Source: Escherichia phage vB_EcoM_LMP25 | Direction: 5' to 3' (one strand) | Sequence record: MK482688.1 | Length of the DNA stretch: 64,000 nt | In this document: positions 1,200 through 11,935 of the stretch, piece after piece | Layout: each line of letters begins with the position of its first letter | Numbering within the stretch: position 1 is the stretch's first letter | Notes under the pieces: generated by a model | Told to the model about the DNA's origin: nothing | Databases searched by the model: none | Seen by the model: only the letters and a program-made list of their open reading frames with translations | Translations under genes and position numbers: made by a program

Positions 1200-2732
1200 T
1201 TATCGGTTGTCCCAACCTCTGGGTCACCATCATATGTGAACAAAATATCTACCCTTCTTAACAACCTTCTTAAGCTTACTCTCTATATATAGTTATATAG
1301 TACTATATAGTATCTTAGTATCTATCTAGTGGTCTTAATAGCCCTCTGTATAACCCTTCTAACAAGCCCTCTAACAAGCCTTCTTAACAACCTATACAAT
1401 CACCTTAACCACCTCTCTATACCCTCTTAGAAGCTCCTATACACCTCTTAATCTCTAGGTTAGCTATGACACTCTCTATAGGTGTTCACTAGGTATTACT
1501 AAGCCTCTATATAGACTGTTTTAACAAACTTAACAGGAATATCTTCACAGACCTTATCTCACAAGGTCTAACACGGTACTAACAAGGTATCTTATAAGCC
1601 TGTTATTACCTGTATTTTAGAAAGGCTGTATAGGTAATTATTCAGAATCTTAAAATTTTTATAAAATAGGACTATCAAGTCATTTTTTAGGGTCTTTGAA
1701 GGAACTGAAAAATATCTGTAGAAGATGTATATCTGCTTGGTAGCCCTTAACAACTCCCTTACAAGTACTTTGCAAAATTTTAAATATCATTAACAATTCC
1801 TTAACAACTCTCTCAAGTTCTTAACATCTCTTCAGAGGTCTTAACAGATTCTTAACAGAACTAACAAGGTTGTAACAAGTTCTTAACAGTTGATACATAG
1901 GCTTTACAGAATCTTAACAGATGACTAACAAGAGCTAACAAGTTAATTTTTAAGAGTTATTTTGTTAAGATAATTAACAAGTTTCTAACAAGTGTTTAAT
2001 CTTTTTAACAAGCTATTAACATGGTCACTACTCTTTTCTTATCGTTCCCTTTCCCTCTTAGTGATTCTCTAAACATACCTCTTAAAAGCTCTCTATAGCT
2101 CTTTATAAGCTCTTTTAAGCCTCTTCCTAGTAATTACACCCCAACTGTACAGATACCTCTTTATAAGGCTTTACAGGGGCTTTAAAGGCTATGTCAAAGG
2201 TTCTTACAAGGCTTTTACGTTGTCTTAACAGAGATTTAACAAGGGGCTAACAAGTTGCTAACAAGCATAACTATGTAGGGATTGTTAAGAAATTGTTAAG
2301 AAAATGTTAAGGGGGCTAGCATTTACGTAACTTTTAAGCAACTTCAAAGTAACTTTATAGCCCCTATAACATACTTTTAAGACACTAACAAGCCCTTTTT
2401 AGATATTCACAAGATAGCTAACGAGATAATAAAGCTTATAACCTTATAAGATTCTTTTAAGCCTCTATAAAGCCCTGTAAAGAGCTTTTTAAGGTTGGTT
2501 AATGCAATCCCTTAAGTTAGGTTGATAAGGCTGTTATAGAGCTTTATAGAGCATTTAAATGGGCCATCCCCTTTCTGGGGTTATTGGCTTTTATTTAAGT
2601 TGATTTGATAAAAGGTTATAGAGTAGACTATAGAGTTATTGCTTTTTAAGGTATGAGATAGATTCTATCGAATTAGTGGGATAGATTCTAGGAAGGAAAG
2701 GGAAAGGGTTGTATAGAGGCTATTACATAGAC
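1200..2732. repeat. ORF-free, G-depleted (on + strand) region dense in degenerate short words (CTTAACAAG, CTCTATA, CTTTTAAG) in both orientations
   Basis: No ORF of 60 aa or more on either strand over about 1.5 kb between convergent terminators; words counted by eye. Confidence 0.6.
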
Positions 2733-6096: not shown

Positions 6097-6197
6097 TTTT
6101 GAATCTCCAGTTTAGGACTTTATTTAGTGGGGAAGGTCATTCCCTCCCCGTTGATGTGTAATTTAATCTATCTAAAAACCAGTGTCAACAAAATTTT
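6097..6197 (-). promoter_or_regulatory. F1 cassette with complete sigma70-like promoter
   Basis: On - strand TTGACA (6188-6183), 17 nt spacer, TAAATT (6165-6160), then F1 stem-loop and leader. Confidence 0.5.
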
Positions 6198-8743: not shown

Positions 8744-9127
8744 TTATTTGTTAATTTTGAAGATAGTTACATAACCATCGCTGCCGATGATTTGTGATGC
8801 TCCAGCTTTTTCTACTTGATAGCCCATATTTTCAAGATGGTAAACAGCATCATCATAACCATATGCGCCGCCCTGATAACGTCTCTTATCACATCTTACT
8901 AATACCTTTCCACGTCCTGCCAGTGCATTTAGTACGGCTTTTTCACTTGAAAGTGTACCATCTAACATGGTTGCCGTGTAATGGTTGATTCTATTCCCGT
9001 TTACATCATACTTAAAATTGAATGCGTGAACAACGATAATGTTACCTTTAAAATTCTCATCAAGTGACTTCTCCAGTGCGTTGCGAAAGTTGTCTTTGTT
9101 GATGAATTTAGGTGCACGATATGCCAT
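8744..9127 (-). CDS. hypothetical early protein, first gene of array
   Basis: 127 aa, ATG verified. Confidence 0.55.
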   Translation of the reverse strand: MAYRAPKFINKDNFRNALEKSLDENFKGNIIVVHAFNFKYDVNGNRINHYTATMLDGTLSSEKAVLNALAGRGKVLVRCDKRRYQGGAYGYDDAVYHLENMGYQVEKAGASQIIGSDGYVTIFKINK

Positions 9128-9190: not shown

Positions 9191-9219
9191 ATACTAGATA
9201 ACCACGTTCAAAGAGTCAA
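9191..9219 (-). promoter_or_regulatory. sigma70-like promoter for early array
   Basis: On - strand TTGACT (9219-9214), 17 nt spacer, TAGTAT (9196-9191). Confidence 0.4.
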
Positions 9220-9341
9220 GAAAAAATTTTAAAAATATTTTTGGCAAAACTGTAATGAAACGGGCGCACACAACTACCACAAAACAGAACACAAATCAAG
9301 AATTATTTTTCAATCCGCTACAAATTTTTCTCTTGACTTTT

Positions 9342-9372
9342 GGGGAGAGGGGGAGTAAGAGGGGGAGAGGGG
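9342..9372 (+). repeat. polypurine mirror repeat / G-quadruplex motif
   Basis: GGGGagaGGGGGagtaagaGGGGGagaGGGG; four G-runs of 4-5 with loops of 3, 7 and 3 nt. Confidence 0.6.
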
Positions 9373-9395
9373 TTGGTCTGGCTCTCTATAAAAAC

Positions 9396-9590
9396 CTACC
9401 TGCACAAATCTAAAATGATTTTTCTTGCCCGACCTGAGTGTGGTCTGCACGTTTTGAAAATGAAAAAGCTCTTTGGAGATTATCTGCACAGTTTGAAAAT
9501 GAATTTTCTCTTTGGAGTTCAAAATTCTCTCTACAGATTTCTCTACAGAACTCTACCTGCACAATTCTGAAATGAAAAAGCCCTCCTTAC
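9396..9590. repeat. four direct repeats CTGCAC-N3-TTGAAAATGA at about 40 bp spacing
   Basis: Copies near 9405, 9440, 9484 and 9560 on + strand; no ORF. Confidence 0.5.
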
Positions 9591-9648
9591 CTGAAAAATT
9601 TACCAGATAAGAAAGGCTTAGGCTATTGTGAATATCCTACAGAGTTTC

Positions 9649-10434
9649 TTAGTTCTTTGCGTCTAAGAAGGTAACTTCTGGTGAAGAGAAAACTGTCTCG
9701 ATATCCTCATCAGTTCTTGCATAGATATAAGTATCTGCATCACTGCCAAATGTTACTGCAATCCTGTGATTGCTCTTCGACAGGTGGGTAACTAGAGCGT
9801 TACTTAGAGACATCTTTTCAACCGGAGGGTTACTTTGATGTATCTTACCTTTTCTTCGTCTGAAGAGGGTAACTGCGTTATCTGTGAACACTGCTACACC
9901 TGCAAAGTATTCTGGTTCACAGTAGTTCTTCCAACCTGAGCGTAACTTGTGGTACATCTCTCCTTCGTAGACATAAAGATACACATCTACACTCTTCATC
10001 ACCTGATTAATGATAACTGTGACGGCTTGAGGGTCTAGTCCACCGATACCTGCACCAATCATAGGTAACCCAACTTTCTTCAACTGATTGACTTCACAGT
10101 ATCTGTTAAGTTGTTTCAAAGATGACTCTAAAGCACTGTATCGGGCATCTTTACCAGTCTTAAGCTGAGTGTAAAGGTTAGCTATACGGCCTTGTTCTAA
10201 ACGTGCTACAGAGAAATTACCCAGTAGATTTTCACAGGGTTTGTGACCTATACCACCTGCATAGAGGTAAACTTCTGTATCGGTCTCATATGCTTTTGGG
10301 TAAAGTTTAGAAATCTTGTCAGCGATACCTGCACCCATTAAATTCATACAGTTGCAACCGTGACCAATGATGTCAAACTTACCTTTATCAAATGCTGCAA
10401 AGATATCGCCATTGATGATTTTTACAATACCCAT
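9649..10434 (-). CDS. macro-domain-like protein (putative ADP-ribose binding/processing) with unknown C-terminal domain
   Basis: N-terminal GDIF..DIIGHGCNCMNLMGAGIADKI and GLPMIGAGIGGLD resemble macro-domain Gly-rich motifs (from memory). Confidence 0.45.
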   Translation of the reverse strand: MGIVKIINGDIFAAFDKGKFDIIGHGCNCMNLMGAGIADKISKLYPKAYETDTEVYLYAGGIGHKPCENLLGNFSVARLEQGRIANLYTQLKTGKDARYSALESSLKQLNRYCEVNQLKKVGLPMIGAGIGGLDPQAVTVIINQVMKSVDVYLYVYEGEMYHKLRSGWKNYCEPEYFAGVAVFTDNAVTLFRRRKGKIHQSNPPVEKMSLSNALVTHLSKSNHRIAVTFGSDADTYIYARTDEDIETVFSSPEVTFLDAKN

Positions 10435-11428: not shown

Positions 11429-11694
11429 TGCTGCTTATTCCCTAATAAAATCATGTCAATAAGGTTATTAGCTTTAATTGTACACTGGTAAAAGCCGTCA
11501 CGGTAGAACTCAAGTGCTGCTGCTACATCACTGCCTGTGTTGCCTTTGATGATATACCGTGATTCTTCTTGAGTGTACTTATCACTCTCACTTACTTGGG
11601 AGTTTTTGAATGTACTGTTCACTTTGTTCGTTGAACATCCTGACATAATTATCAGTAACACAAACATTATAAAACTCTGGCTTAGTTTTTTCAT
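11425..11694 (-). CDS. putative lipoprotein (possible o-spanin-like)
   Basis: Signal peptide with lipobox LIIMSG-C; start lies 107 nt inside the 3' end of the upstream membrane-protein gene in another frame. Confidence 0.45.
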   Translation of the reverse strand: MKKLSQSFIMFVLLIIMSGCSTNKVNSTFKNSQVSESDKYTQEESRYIIKGNTGSDVAAALEFYRDGFYQCTIKANNLIDMILLGNKQQ

Positions 11695-11935
11695 ATGTTA
11701 GTACCTCTTTTGTGTGCTTATTCTTAGCAAGCACATCTTTCAAATCATTTTTGTAATTGGCGCTCAGTGTAACTAATCCTTCCTGATAAGCATCTTTAGC
11801 AACACTTATGAGCTTTTGATTGTTTAGCTCAGTTTCAGCAACTTGGTAGTCTCTGTAAGAGTACCCTCCCCAGACACCCGCCCCAACTAAGAAAACAATT
11901 ATGAAAGTAGCTTGACAGAACTCTTTAAATGTCAT
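11588..11935 (-). CDS. type II membrane protein (possible i-spanin-like)
   Basis: N-terminal TM FIIVFLVGAGVWGG then helical domain; overlapped by lipoprotein gene. Confidence 0.45.
   Translation of the reverse strand: MTFKEFCQATFIIVFLVGAGVWGGYSYRDYQVAETELNNQKLISVAKDAYQEGLVTLSANYKNDLKDVLAKNKHTKEVLTYEKTKPEFYNVCVTDNYVRMFNEQSEQYIQKLPSK

What the first reader, a model, noticed from the sequence alone, without database searches (positions are those of the whole stretch)
9342..9372. Polypurine mirror repeat with canonical G-quadruplex spacing
GGGGagaGGGGGagtaagaGGGGGagaGGGG is an almost perfect mirror repeat of pure purines (one T) with four G-runs separated by 3, 7 and 3 nt. In an AT-rich genome this is unlikely by chance. 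It lies just upstream of the early-array promoter and could form a G4 or H-DNA triplex, acting as a transcription or replication barrier or a nuclease-sensitive site.
Basis: seen in the sequence. Interest (0 to 1): 0.5.

Follow-up and report, generated by a model that had tools for sequence, protein, structure and literature searches.

The report
G-rich cassette inside phage promoter
The G-rich mirror repeat is real and far from random, but it is one of two interchangeable sequence versions of the core of a small, unannotated promoter in Felix O1-like phages, and more than half of the relatives lack it, so any four-stranded DNA structure there is optional, not essential.

Summary
GGGGAGAGGGGGAGTAAGAGGGGGAGAGGGG lies at 9342-9372 and is the only G4 pattern on the + strand in 64 kb.

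The window is a Felixounavirus, identical here to phage LMP33. The motif sits in a 521-bp conserved non-coding region between two minus-strand genes. It fills the spacer, -10 position and start region of an unannotated plus-strand promoter-like element (TTGACT-17-TAAGAG). That element lies back-to-back with the early-array promoter.

Between invariant flanks, relatives carry one of two cassettes:
- **G-rich:** 112 GenBank records, including Felix O1, Mooglevirus and Suspvirus.
- **Not G-rich:** 140 records, reading TTGACT-17-TGgTAGCCT.

All 37 cassettes examined keep TA exactly 17 nt after TTGACT. The perfect mirror symmetry and the strongly predicted four-layer G4 are confined to the LMP33/wV8/Felix O1 clade.

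Three independent GenBank assemblies break in or next to the motif, which suggests polymerase trouble in vitro.

The motif is not a genome end, a structured RNA or coding sequence. Most likely it is a promoter-core variant with optional, untested non-B DNA potential. Interest is modest.

The parts
9342..9372 (+). G-rich homopurine mirror repeat and canonical G4 motif (the finding). About -26 to +5 relative to the predicted + strand start.
9333..9338 (+). -35-like hexamer TTGACT of the unannotated + strand promoter-like element P(+). TTGACTTTT is invariant in all relatives aligned.
9356..9361 (+). -10-position hexamer TAAGAG, 17 nt after TTGACT. It lies inside the motif and holds its only T. 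It lacks the usual final T. It reads TAATAG in wV8 and TAGCCT (with upstream TG) in type B relatives.
9342..9394 (+). Variable cassette between the invariant flanks TTGACTTTT and ACCTACCTGCACAA. G-rich type A here. A non-homologous type B (36-38% identity) replaces it in 140 GenBank relatives.
9322..9341 (+). A/T-rich upstream module plus -35 of P(+). It is an inverted copy (85%) of the matching module of the early promoter at 9211-9230.
9191..9219 (-). Early-array sigma-70-type promoter P(-): TTGACT-17-TAGTAT followed by TTGCATCAACGG. Same class as the promoters at 6188 and 7054. Annotated as a promoter in phage ASO1A.
9160..9181 (-). GGGG/CCCC hairpin at the predicted 5' end of the early mRNA for gene 8744..9127. 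Part of wV8 'DR_6'.
9399..9424 (+). Repeat 1 of four conserved direct repeats (CTGCAC-N-AAAATGA type).
9444..9478 (+). Repeat 2 of four.
9483..9517 (+). Repeat 3 of four.
9556..9590 (+). Repeat 4 of four. It overlaps the terminator stem.
9578..9619 (-). Intrinsic terminator of the upstream minus-strand phosphatase/macro-domain gene (9649..10434). No T-run on the + strand.
1737..2308 (-). [quoted passage not shown] This is the physical genome end, about 7.0 kb from the motif.

Best explanation
The motif is the core of one allelic form (type A) of a roughly 53-nt cassette. The cassette makes up the spacer, the -10 position and the start region of an orphan rightward sigma-70-type promoter, P(+). 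This promoter lies back-to-back with the early-array promoter in a conserved 521-bp non-coding control region of Felix O1-like phages.

Shown: the geometry, the conservation pattern and the existence of two cassette alleles.

Inferred:
- P(+) fires. It would transcribe the four conserved repeats in the direction opposite to all neighbouring genes.
- The G-rich allele gives a weak or conditional promoter. Its -10 (TAAGAG) lacks the final T, and a G-run directly follows it as the discriminator. The type B allele is a conventional extended -10 promoter.
- Under the negative supercoiling generated behind RNA polymerase leaving the divergent early promoter, the homopurine mirror/G4 tract on the non-template strand could flip into a non-B form and tune P(+). 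Such structure formation is an optional, clade-specific layer, not the reason the region exists.

The mirror symmetry itself is most simply a duplication of a self-mirror 11-mer.
For: - TTGACT at 9333 and TA exactly 17 nt later are present in all 37 cassettes examined: TAAGAG 18, TAATAG 2, TAGCCT 16, TAGTCT 1.
- Indels between cassette types fall only downstream of the hexamer.
- The only invariant bases inside the cassette include the G-T-A at the -10 position.
- Type B reads TTGACT-17-TGgTAGCCT, an extended -10 promoter.
- The Erwinia outgroup has a fully canonical + strand promoter, TTGACG-17-TATACT, upstream of the same four repeats.
- The -35/upstream module is an inverted copy of that of the early promoter.
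- LMP33 versus type B: flanks 88-99% identical, cassette 36-38%.
- 140 records carry type B and 112 carry type A.
- LMP33 versus Moogle-type: cassette 64% identical against flanks of 70-81%, consistent with ordinary descent.
- Mirror symmetry and a predicted stable G4 occur only in the LMP33/wV8 clade.
- There is no covarying RNA structure and no Rfam match.
Against: - No transcription-start data exist for any Felix O1-like phage in the literature searched, so P(+) activity is unproven.
- TAAGAG lacks the highly conserved final T of the -10 hexamer and failed the promoter scan's rule, so type A may not be a functional sigma-70 promoter.
- No convincing product for P(+) was found. There is no structured RNA, only a doubtful small ORF, and no + strand terminator.
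- In the Erwinia phage a G-rich element lies about 110 nt downstream of the promoter rather than in it. G-richness therefore predates, or is independent of, the promoter overlap.
- All 12 unique type A variants keep at least four G-tracts of 3 or more. Eleven do so with loops of 7 nt or less, and one with a 9-nt loop. This hints at some constraint on the tracts themselves.
Confidence: 0.45

Rival explanations
1. Dedicated non-B DNA element. The tract folds into a G-quadruplex or an intramolecular triplex in vivo. It then acts as a barrier or switch for transcription or replication, or as a nuclease-sensitive or recombination-prone site.
For: - G4Hunter scores 2.36.
- A four-layer G4 is predicted at -23.8 versus -4.8 kcal/mol for the single strand.
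- The 14-nt homopurine mirror arms are perfect, with a 3-nt spacer.
- All type A variants in three genera keep at least four G-tracts despite sequence change.
- Three independent GenBank assemblies (TH10, Andreotti, LMP34) break in or within 4 nt of the motif. Poisson P is about 8e-6 for 79 records.
- The motif lies 123-153 bp behind a strong divergent promoter, where negative supercoiling is expected (inference from the twin-domain model, own knowledge).
Against: - It is absent from 140 of about 252 relatives whose flanks are 88-99% identical, so it is not needed for the life cycle.
- G4-aware folding predicts no quadruplex for the Moogle-type, the Erwinia-type or variant L029.
- Mirror symmetry falls to 0.74-0.81, with T interruptions, outside one clade.
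- Point changes hit the G-tracts within the clade.
- The assembly breaks show in-vitro sequencing trouble, not in-vivo structure.
Confidence: 0.2
2. No selected function of the G-richness or symmetry. The tract is low-complexity sequence that arose by duplication or slippage of GGGGAGAGGGG in a tolerant stretch between functional elements, and it hitch-hikes with them.
For: - The cassette is the least conserved stretch of the region.
- It can be replaced wholesale.
- The mirror repeat is fully explained as a direct repeat of a self-mirror 11-mer.
- G-tract edges vary within the clade.
- It has no counterpart in E. coli genomes.
Against: - A G-rich version has persisted across Felixounavirus, Mooglevirus and Suspvirus, with a G-rich relic in Kolesnikvirus.
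- This is in genomes of about 39% G+C, where such tracts should decay. G4 repeats are also genetically unstable in E. coli (PMC10530614).
- The fixed 17-nt TTGACT-TA geometry shows that at least part of the cassette is constrained.
Confidence: 0.2
3. Rho-loading (rut-like) site on the minus-strand RNA. Transcripts that read through the phosphatase-gene terminator would carry a C-rich, G-free tract. This would recruit Rho and stop them before they run into the early promoter.
For: - The minus-strand copy has 22 C, 8 U, 1 A and 0 G.
- The best 78-nt window (9394..9317) has C 28 and G 9, in the top 0.5% of the window.
- It lies about 200 nt downstream of the intrinsic terminator and upstream of P(-).
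- The Moogle-type has a similar C-over-G excess, C 24 and G 8.
Against: - Type B phages have no such C-over-G excess (best C 15, G 9), although they share the same terminator and promoter.
- The tract is short for a rut site.
- Stronger C-rich windows exist elsewhere in the window.
Confidence: 0.08
4. Translation-related. The GGAG/GAGG runs serve as ribosome-binding sites, or the tract is part of a small + strand gene, as some annotators have called (Mordin_126, Sf13 gp58, LMP33 hypothetical proteins).
For: - In Moogle-type phages an ATG follows GGAG by 9 nt inside the motif.
- A 51-aa ORF (9415-9570) is present in many Felixounavirus, extended to 66 aa from an ATG near the predicted start in type B. 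It shows a mild third-position excess: 5/7/14 variable sites by codon position.
Against: - The reading frame relative to the conserved repeats differs between genera.
- The ORF is frameshifted in wV8, truncated in L035 and variable in length in the Moogle group.
- Synonymous changes number 11 against 18 non-synonymous.
- There are only marginal PHROG hits, E 0.002-0.009.
- The 76-aa TTG ORF that covers the motif would begin upstream of the predicted start.
Confidence: 0.04

Closest known systems
Putative G-quadruplex sequences in or next to bacterial promoters, such as the engineered series of Holder & Hartig 2014 (Chem Biol 21:1511). The citation was seen; the content is from my own knowledge.
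   Same: Four G-tracts with short loops within a sigma-70-type promoter region of an E. coli-infecting genome. The effect is expected to depend on strand and on position relative to the -35 and -10 elements.
   Different: This one is natural. It overlaps the -10 position itself, is also a perfect homopurine mirror repeat, is unverified biophysically, and is dispensable in 56% of relatives.
Neisseria gonorrhoeae pilE G4 with its adjacent small-RNA promoter (Cahoon & Seifert 2009 and 2013; own knowledge, not checked here).
   Same: A G4 motif lies directly beside an orphan promoter that makes a non-coding transcript. The G-rich strand is the non-template strand, and the element sits upstream of a differently oriented gene set.
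   Different: In pilE, transcription starts within the G4 motif, is needed to open it, and the outcome is programmed recombination. Here most tracts lie upstream of the predicted start, and neither a transcript nor a recombination role is shown.
H-DNA-forming homopurine-homopyrimidine mirror repeats (Mirkin and Frank-Kamenetskii; own knowledge).
   Same: Perfect 14-nt all-purine mirror arms with a 3-nt spacer, located where negative supercoiling is expected.
   Different: There has been no supercoiling or chemical-probing test. The symmetry is clade-specific and explained by a direct duplication.
Sigma-70 promoters with a G-rich discriminator (GGGA-type element contacted by sigma region 1.2; Haugen 2006, Feklistov 2006; own knowledge).
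   Same: A G-run starts immediately after the -10 position: TAAGAG-GGGGGA here and TAAGAG-GGGA in the Moogle-type.
   Different: The -10 here lacks the final T. No binding or open-complex data exist.
Promoter-plus-G-rich-element replication primers: ColE1 RNA II, mitochondrial CSB II, phage T4 ori(uvsY)/ori(34) (own knowledge).
   Same: An orphan promoter with no coding target, G-rich non-template DNA at or after the start, and a cluster of unique conserved direct repeats next to it.
   Different: There is no evidence of origin function. In LMP33 most G-tracts are not transcribed. This is only a lead.

Membership tests
Canonical intramolecular G-quadruplex motif | Four runs of at least three G separated by loops of 1-7 nt | tested here: met
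   Runs of 4, 5, 5 and 4 with loops of 3, 7 and 3. G4Hunter 2.36.
Canonical intramolecular G-quadruplex motif | Quadruplex is the favoured fold of the single strand | tested here: met
   ViennaRNA with G4 allowed: -23.8 versus -4.8 kcal/mol with DNA parameters and -28.9 versus -20.1 with RNA parameters. This is a model prediction only.
Canonical intramolecular G-quadruplex motif | Cation-dependent folding shown in vitro (CD, thioflavin T, polymerase stop) | not testable with these tools
   The only indirect hint is that three assemblies break at the motif.
Functional (selected) G4 element | G4 potential conserved across relatives | tested here: inconclusive
   It is kept in 112 records across three genera and absent in 140. 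A stable G4 is predicted only in one clade.
H-DNA (intramolecular triplex) motif | Homopurine-homopyrimidine mirror repeat with arms of at least 10 nt and a short spacer | tested here: met
   Perfect 14-nt arms with the 3-nt spacer TAA.
H-DNA (intramolecular triplex) motif | Supercoil- or pH-dependent structural transition | not testable with these tools
   Needs S1 or chemical probing on supercoiled DNA.
Sigma-70-type promoter | -35 hexamer close to TTGACA | tested here: met
   TTGACT at 9333-9338, invariant in all relatives.
Sigma-70-type promoter | Spacer of 16-18 nt | tested here: met
   17 nt in 37 of 37 cassettes, and 17 nt in the Erwinia outgroup.
Sigma-70-type promoter | -10 hexamer of TAnnnT type | tested here: not met
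   TAAGAG lacks the final T and was not called by the scan. The feature is met in type B (TGgTAGCCT) and in the Erwinia phage (TATACT).
Sigma-70-type promoter | Mapped transcription start | not testable with these tools
   No start-site data were found in the literature.
Genome terminus or packaging site | Coincides with the physical DNA end or terminal repeat | tested here: not met
   The mapped 608-bp terminal repeat of UAB_Phi87 aligns to window 1737-2308, 7 kb away.
Structured non-coding RNA | Conserved secondary structure with compensatory changes, or an Rfam match | tested here: not met
   There are 0 (+ strand) and 1 (- strand) compensatory pairs in 23 sequences. No Rfam hit at E of 1 or below.
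Protein-coding sequence | Reading frame conserved across relatives with a synonymous-biased substitution pattern | tested here: not met
   Frames differ between genera. The ORF is frameshifted in wV8. Synonymous 11 versus non-synonymous 18.
Rho utilisation site | Extended C-rich, G-poor unstructured RNA, conserved in relatives that share the terminator and promoter layout | tested here: inconclusive
   C 28 and G 9 in 78 nt here. C 24 and G 8 in Moogle. C 15 and G 9 in type B.

The most novel reading that the evidence does not exclude
The G-rich cassette is a supercoil-sensing structural switch (G4 or H-DNA) built into an orphan promoter. That promoter's transcript acts at the adjacent cluster of four unique, family-wide repeats. 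One possibility is a transcription-primed or transcription-activated replication origin. Another is a control point about 8% of the genome length from the DNA end, loosely reminiscent of the phage T5 injection-stop region. On this reading the two cassette alleles set different firing regimes.
Probability: 0.12. Interest if true: 0.6.

Novelty: new member of a known kind. Interest (0 to 1): 0.3.

Why it matters
Felix O1 and its relatives are classical typing and biocontrol phages, yet their transcription programme and replication origin are unmapped. This work points to three things:
- A compact, family-wide non-coding control region: divergent promoters, four unique repeats and a terminator.
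- A previously unannotated rightward promoter inside that region.
- A natural two-allele polymorphism of that promoter's core, with and without strong non-B DNA potential. This gives a ready-made isogenic test of whether a G4/H-DNA motif in a bacterial-type promoter does anything in vivo.

There is also a practical point. The motif is a reproducible assembly breakpoint, which explains some truncated or oddly linearised Felixounavirus records.

Tried and rejected
- **Genome end or packaging site.** I suspected this because the TH10, Andreotti and LMP34 records break at the motif. It is rejected: the experimentally mapped terminal repeat of UAB_Phi87 maps to 1737-2308. The breaks look like assembly or coverage artefacts. 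TH10 has a 72-nt terminal overlap, Andreotti has a fold-back, and LMP34 is a partial genome.
- **Known RNA family.** None found.
- **Structured RNA on either strand.** No covariation.
- **Protein-coding.** No conserved frame, and only marginal PHROG hits.
- **Recurrent phage promoter class.** The -35/upstream module occurs only here and, inverted, at the early promoter. The four repeats are unique to this locus.
- **Host-derived sequence.** No match in 5,426 E. coli genomes.
- **Literature.** I searched for transcription-start or functional data on this region in Felix O1, wV8, SUSP1 (CRISPRi-ART) and Bas63 (PhageMaP). Nothing relevant turned up. One search was badly posed and wasted.
- **G4 prediction for SUSP1.** The ViennaRNA two-layer G4 result for SUSP1 looks like a model artefact, so I did not use it.

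Full report
**Observation.** The 31-nt tract GGGGAGAGGGGGAGTAAGAGGGGGAGAGGGG is at 9342-9372 on the + strand. It has 30 purines, 22 G and four G-runs (4, 5, 5, 4) with loops of 3, 7 and 3 nt. It consists of two perfect 14-nt mirror arms around TAA. It is equally a direct repeat of the self-mirror 11-mer GGGGAGAGGGG around GAGTAAGAG. The three-run pattern occurs nowhere else in the window and in none of 100 dinucleotide-preserving shuffles.

**What genome this is.** The 601 nt around the motif are 100% identical to Escherichia phage vB_EcoM_LMP33. They are 72-98% identical to about 255 other Ounavirinae: Felixounavirus including Felix O1 itself, Mooglevirus and Suspvirus.

**Local anatomy.**
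- The motif lies in a 521-bp gap between two minus-strand genes. One is a phosphatase/macro-domain gene (9649..10434, PHROG 335). The other is the first gene of an array of small early genes (8744..9127).
- Reading along the minus strand, the gap holds the intrinsic terminator of the phosphatase gene (9619..9578) and four conserved direct repeats of the type CTGCAC-N-AAAATGA (9399, 9444, 9483, 9556). These repeats are unique to this locus.
- Next come the motif and a sigma-70-type promoter, TTGACT-17-TAGTAT (9219..9191).
- That promoter belongs to a recurring early-array class, followed by CATCAACGG and a GGGG/CCCC hairpin. It is annotated as a promoter in phage ASO1A.
- Its -35/upstream module is repeated in inverted orientation at 9322-9341. 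This gives a + strand TTGACT at 9333-9338.
- Seventeen nt later, inside the motif, is TAAGAG (9356-9361). Its T is the only non-purine of the tract.
- The motif therefore spans about -26 to +5 of a divergent, so far unannotated, promoter-like element that I call P(+).

**Conservation.**
- An 11-phage alignment and a scan of viral contigs anchored on the invariant flanks TTGACTTTT and CTACCTGCACAA gave 37-38 sequences, 27 of them unique.
- The segment between the flanks is the least conserved part of an otherwise very conserved region. It comes in two forms.
- Type A is G-rich. The LMP33/wV8/Felix O1 clade has the mirror repeat. The Moogle/SUSP1/Sf13 form is GGGAGGAAGGGGAGTAAGAGGGGATGGTGGG, which contains T's, has lower mirror symmetry (0.74-0.81) and has tracts of three G.
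- Type B is ATTTTCAGATGTGGTAGCCTTGTGAGAAATGG..., with no G-tracts and a G4Hunter score of 0.4.
- GenBank holds 112 records with type A and 140 with type B. Both types occur in E. coli and in Salmonella phages.
- LMP33 and type B phages are 88-99% identical in the flanks but 36-38% in the cassette, so type B is a replacement. LMP33 and Moogle-type cassettes are 64% identical against 70-81% in the flanks, which is ordinary descent.
- All 37 cassettes keep TA exactly 17 nt after TTGACT. Indels occur only downstream of it. Type B reads as a good extended -10 promoter (TGgTAGCCT).

**Outgroup.** Erwinia phage Rouille (Kolesnikvirus) has the same layout: divergent promoters, four ATGCAC...AAAATGA repeats and a terminator. 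Its + strand promoter is fully canonical, TTGACG-17-TATACT. A G-rich element, GGTAGAGGGGAGGGTGGG, lies about 25 nt before the first repeat but about 110 nt downstream of that promoter. So a rightward promoter in front of the repeats is a family-wide feature. G-richness near the repeats is old, but its overlap with the promoter core is not universal.

**Structure potential.**
- G4-aware folding of the single strand predicts a four-layer quadruplex for LMP33 (-23.8 versus -4.8 kcal/mol, DNA parameters) and for wV8.
- It predicts none for variant L029 (fourth tract mutated), the Moogle-type, the Erwinia-type or type B.
- The 14+3+14 homopurine mirror fits H-DNA geometry.
- Three independent GenBank assemblies break in or next to the motif. 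TH10 starts at the equivalent of 9364, with a 72-nt terminal overlap. LMP34, a partial genome, ends at 9363. Andreotti starts at 9376 with a fold-back artefact.
- With 79 clade records, 0.04 such coincidences are expected (P about 8e-6).
- The simplest reading is a coverage or extension failure at the tract during sequencing. That is indirect evidence of polymerase trouble in vitro, not of structure in vivo.

**Alternatives tested and rejected.**
- The motif is not a genome end. The experimentally mapped 608-bp terminal repeat of UAB_Phi87 (PMC4837284) aligns to window 1737-2308, 7 kb away.
- There is no Rfam match and no covarying RNA structure on either strand.
- No reading frame is conserved. 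Frames differ between genera and wV8 is frameshifted. There are 11 synonymous versus 18 non-synonymous changes, and only marginal PHROG hits.
- There is no counterpart in E. coli genomes.
- On the minus-strand RNA the tract is C-rich and G-free, and the surrounding 78 nt rank in the top 0.5% for C over G. This fits a Rho-loading site, but type B phages lack it.

**Most likely mechanism.** I read the motif as the type A allele of the core of P(+). Shown: the geometry, its strict conservation, the allelic replacement and the clade-restricted symmetry. Inferred:
- P(+) is active and transcribes the repeats against the flow of the neighbouring genes.
- The G-rich allele, with a -10 lacking the final T but a G-run discriminator, makes a weak or conditional promoter compared with type B.
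- Negative supercoiling behind the divergent early promoter could drive the tract into a non-B form that tunes P(+).

Because 56% of relatives do without any G-tract, structure formation cannot be the essential function of this position. My confidence is about 0.45. The rivals are a dedicated non-B barrier or switch (0.2), no selected function (0.2), a Rho site (0.08) and a translation-related role (0.04).

**Comparison with known systems.**
- The tract meets the sequence definitions of a canonical G4 motif and of an H-DNA mirror repeat. The biophysical criteria could not be tested.
- It meets the -35 and spacer criteria of a sigma-70 promoter but not the -10 criterion, so I do not file type A as a proven promoter.
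- The closest functional analogies are G4 motifs placed within E. coli promoters and the Neisseria pilE G4 with its adjacent small-RNA promoter. More speculative analogies are promoter-plus-G-rich primers at origins (ColE1, T4, mitochondrial CSB II).
- These analogies rest on my own knowledge and are leads, not tests.

**Verdict.** This is a real, statistically exceptional sequence in an interesting and undescribed control region. It is a dispensable allele, and its structural role is unproven. It is a new member of a known kind, of modest interest (0.3). The natural A/B polymorphism makes the question easy to settle experimentally.

Noticed in passing
window 9399-9590 (repeats at 9399, 9444, 9483, 9556); L040 661-800: Four direct repeats (CTGCAC/ATGCAC-N-AAAATGA, about 25-35 nt, spaced 37-73 nt) are conserved across four genera of Ounavirinae and occur nowhere else in the window. 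They look like iterons or an operator cluster. Their function is unknown.
   Followed up: partly
window 9415-9570 (+): A 51-aa ORF (MIFLARPE...TLPAQF) is present in many Felixounavirus and is extended to 66 aa in type B phages, from an ATG 9-11 nt after the -10 (possibly leaderless). It shows a mild third-position excess (5/7/14). It is frameshifted in wV8 and not conserved in Mooglevirus.
   Followed up: partly
window 6188, 7054, 9219 (- strand) and GGGG/CCCC pairs between 4500 and 9200: Early-array promoters share TTGACA/T-17-TAnnnT followed by (A/G)CATCAACGG and a GGGG...CCCC hairpin at the predicted mRNA 5' end. Paired G4/C4 runs recur about every 400-600 nt through the early array.
   Followed up: partly
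window 1737-2308: [quoted passage not shown] The physical genome end therefore lies inside this window. The array of small early genes lies between it and the control region, which is about 7 kb (8% of the genome) from the end.
   Followed up: partly
window 11864-11884: The only other G4-type pattern in the window is CCCTCCCCAGACACCCGCCCC on the + strand, so it is G-rich on the minus (coding) strand. It lies inside ORF 11588..11935.
   Followed up: no
window 9436-9443: A second small bi-allelic patch (GAGTGTGG/GAGCGGGG versus GATTTTTC/GATTTTTA) lies between repeats 1 and 2. It varies independently of the cassette type.
   Followed up: no
GenBank GU169904.1 (Staphylococcus phage SA1) 128890-129148: A record labelled as a Staphylococcus phage carries this Felixounavirus region at 95.8% identity. 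A 'Campylobacter' record also matches. These are probably chimeric or contaminated records.
   Followed up: no
L003 1-16 and L005 813-946 (Andreotti MN850610 record ends): Both ends of the Andreotti record carry inverted-duplication artefacts that are annotated as repeat_region. The record (83,391 nt) appears to lack the early array.
   Followed up: partly
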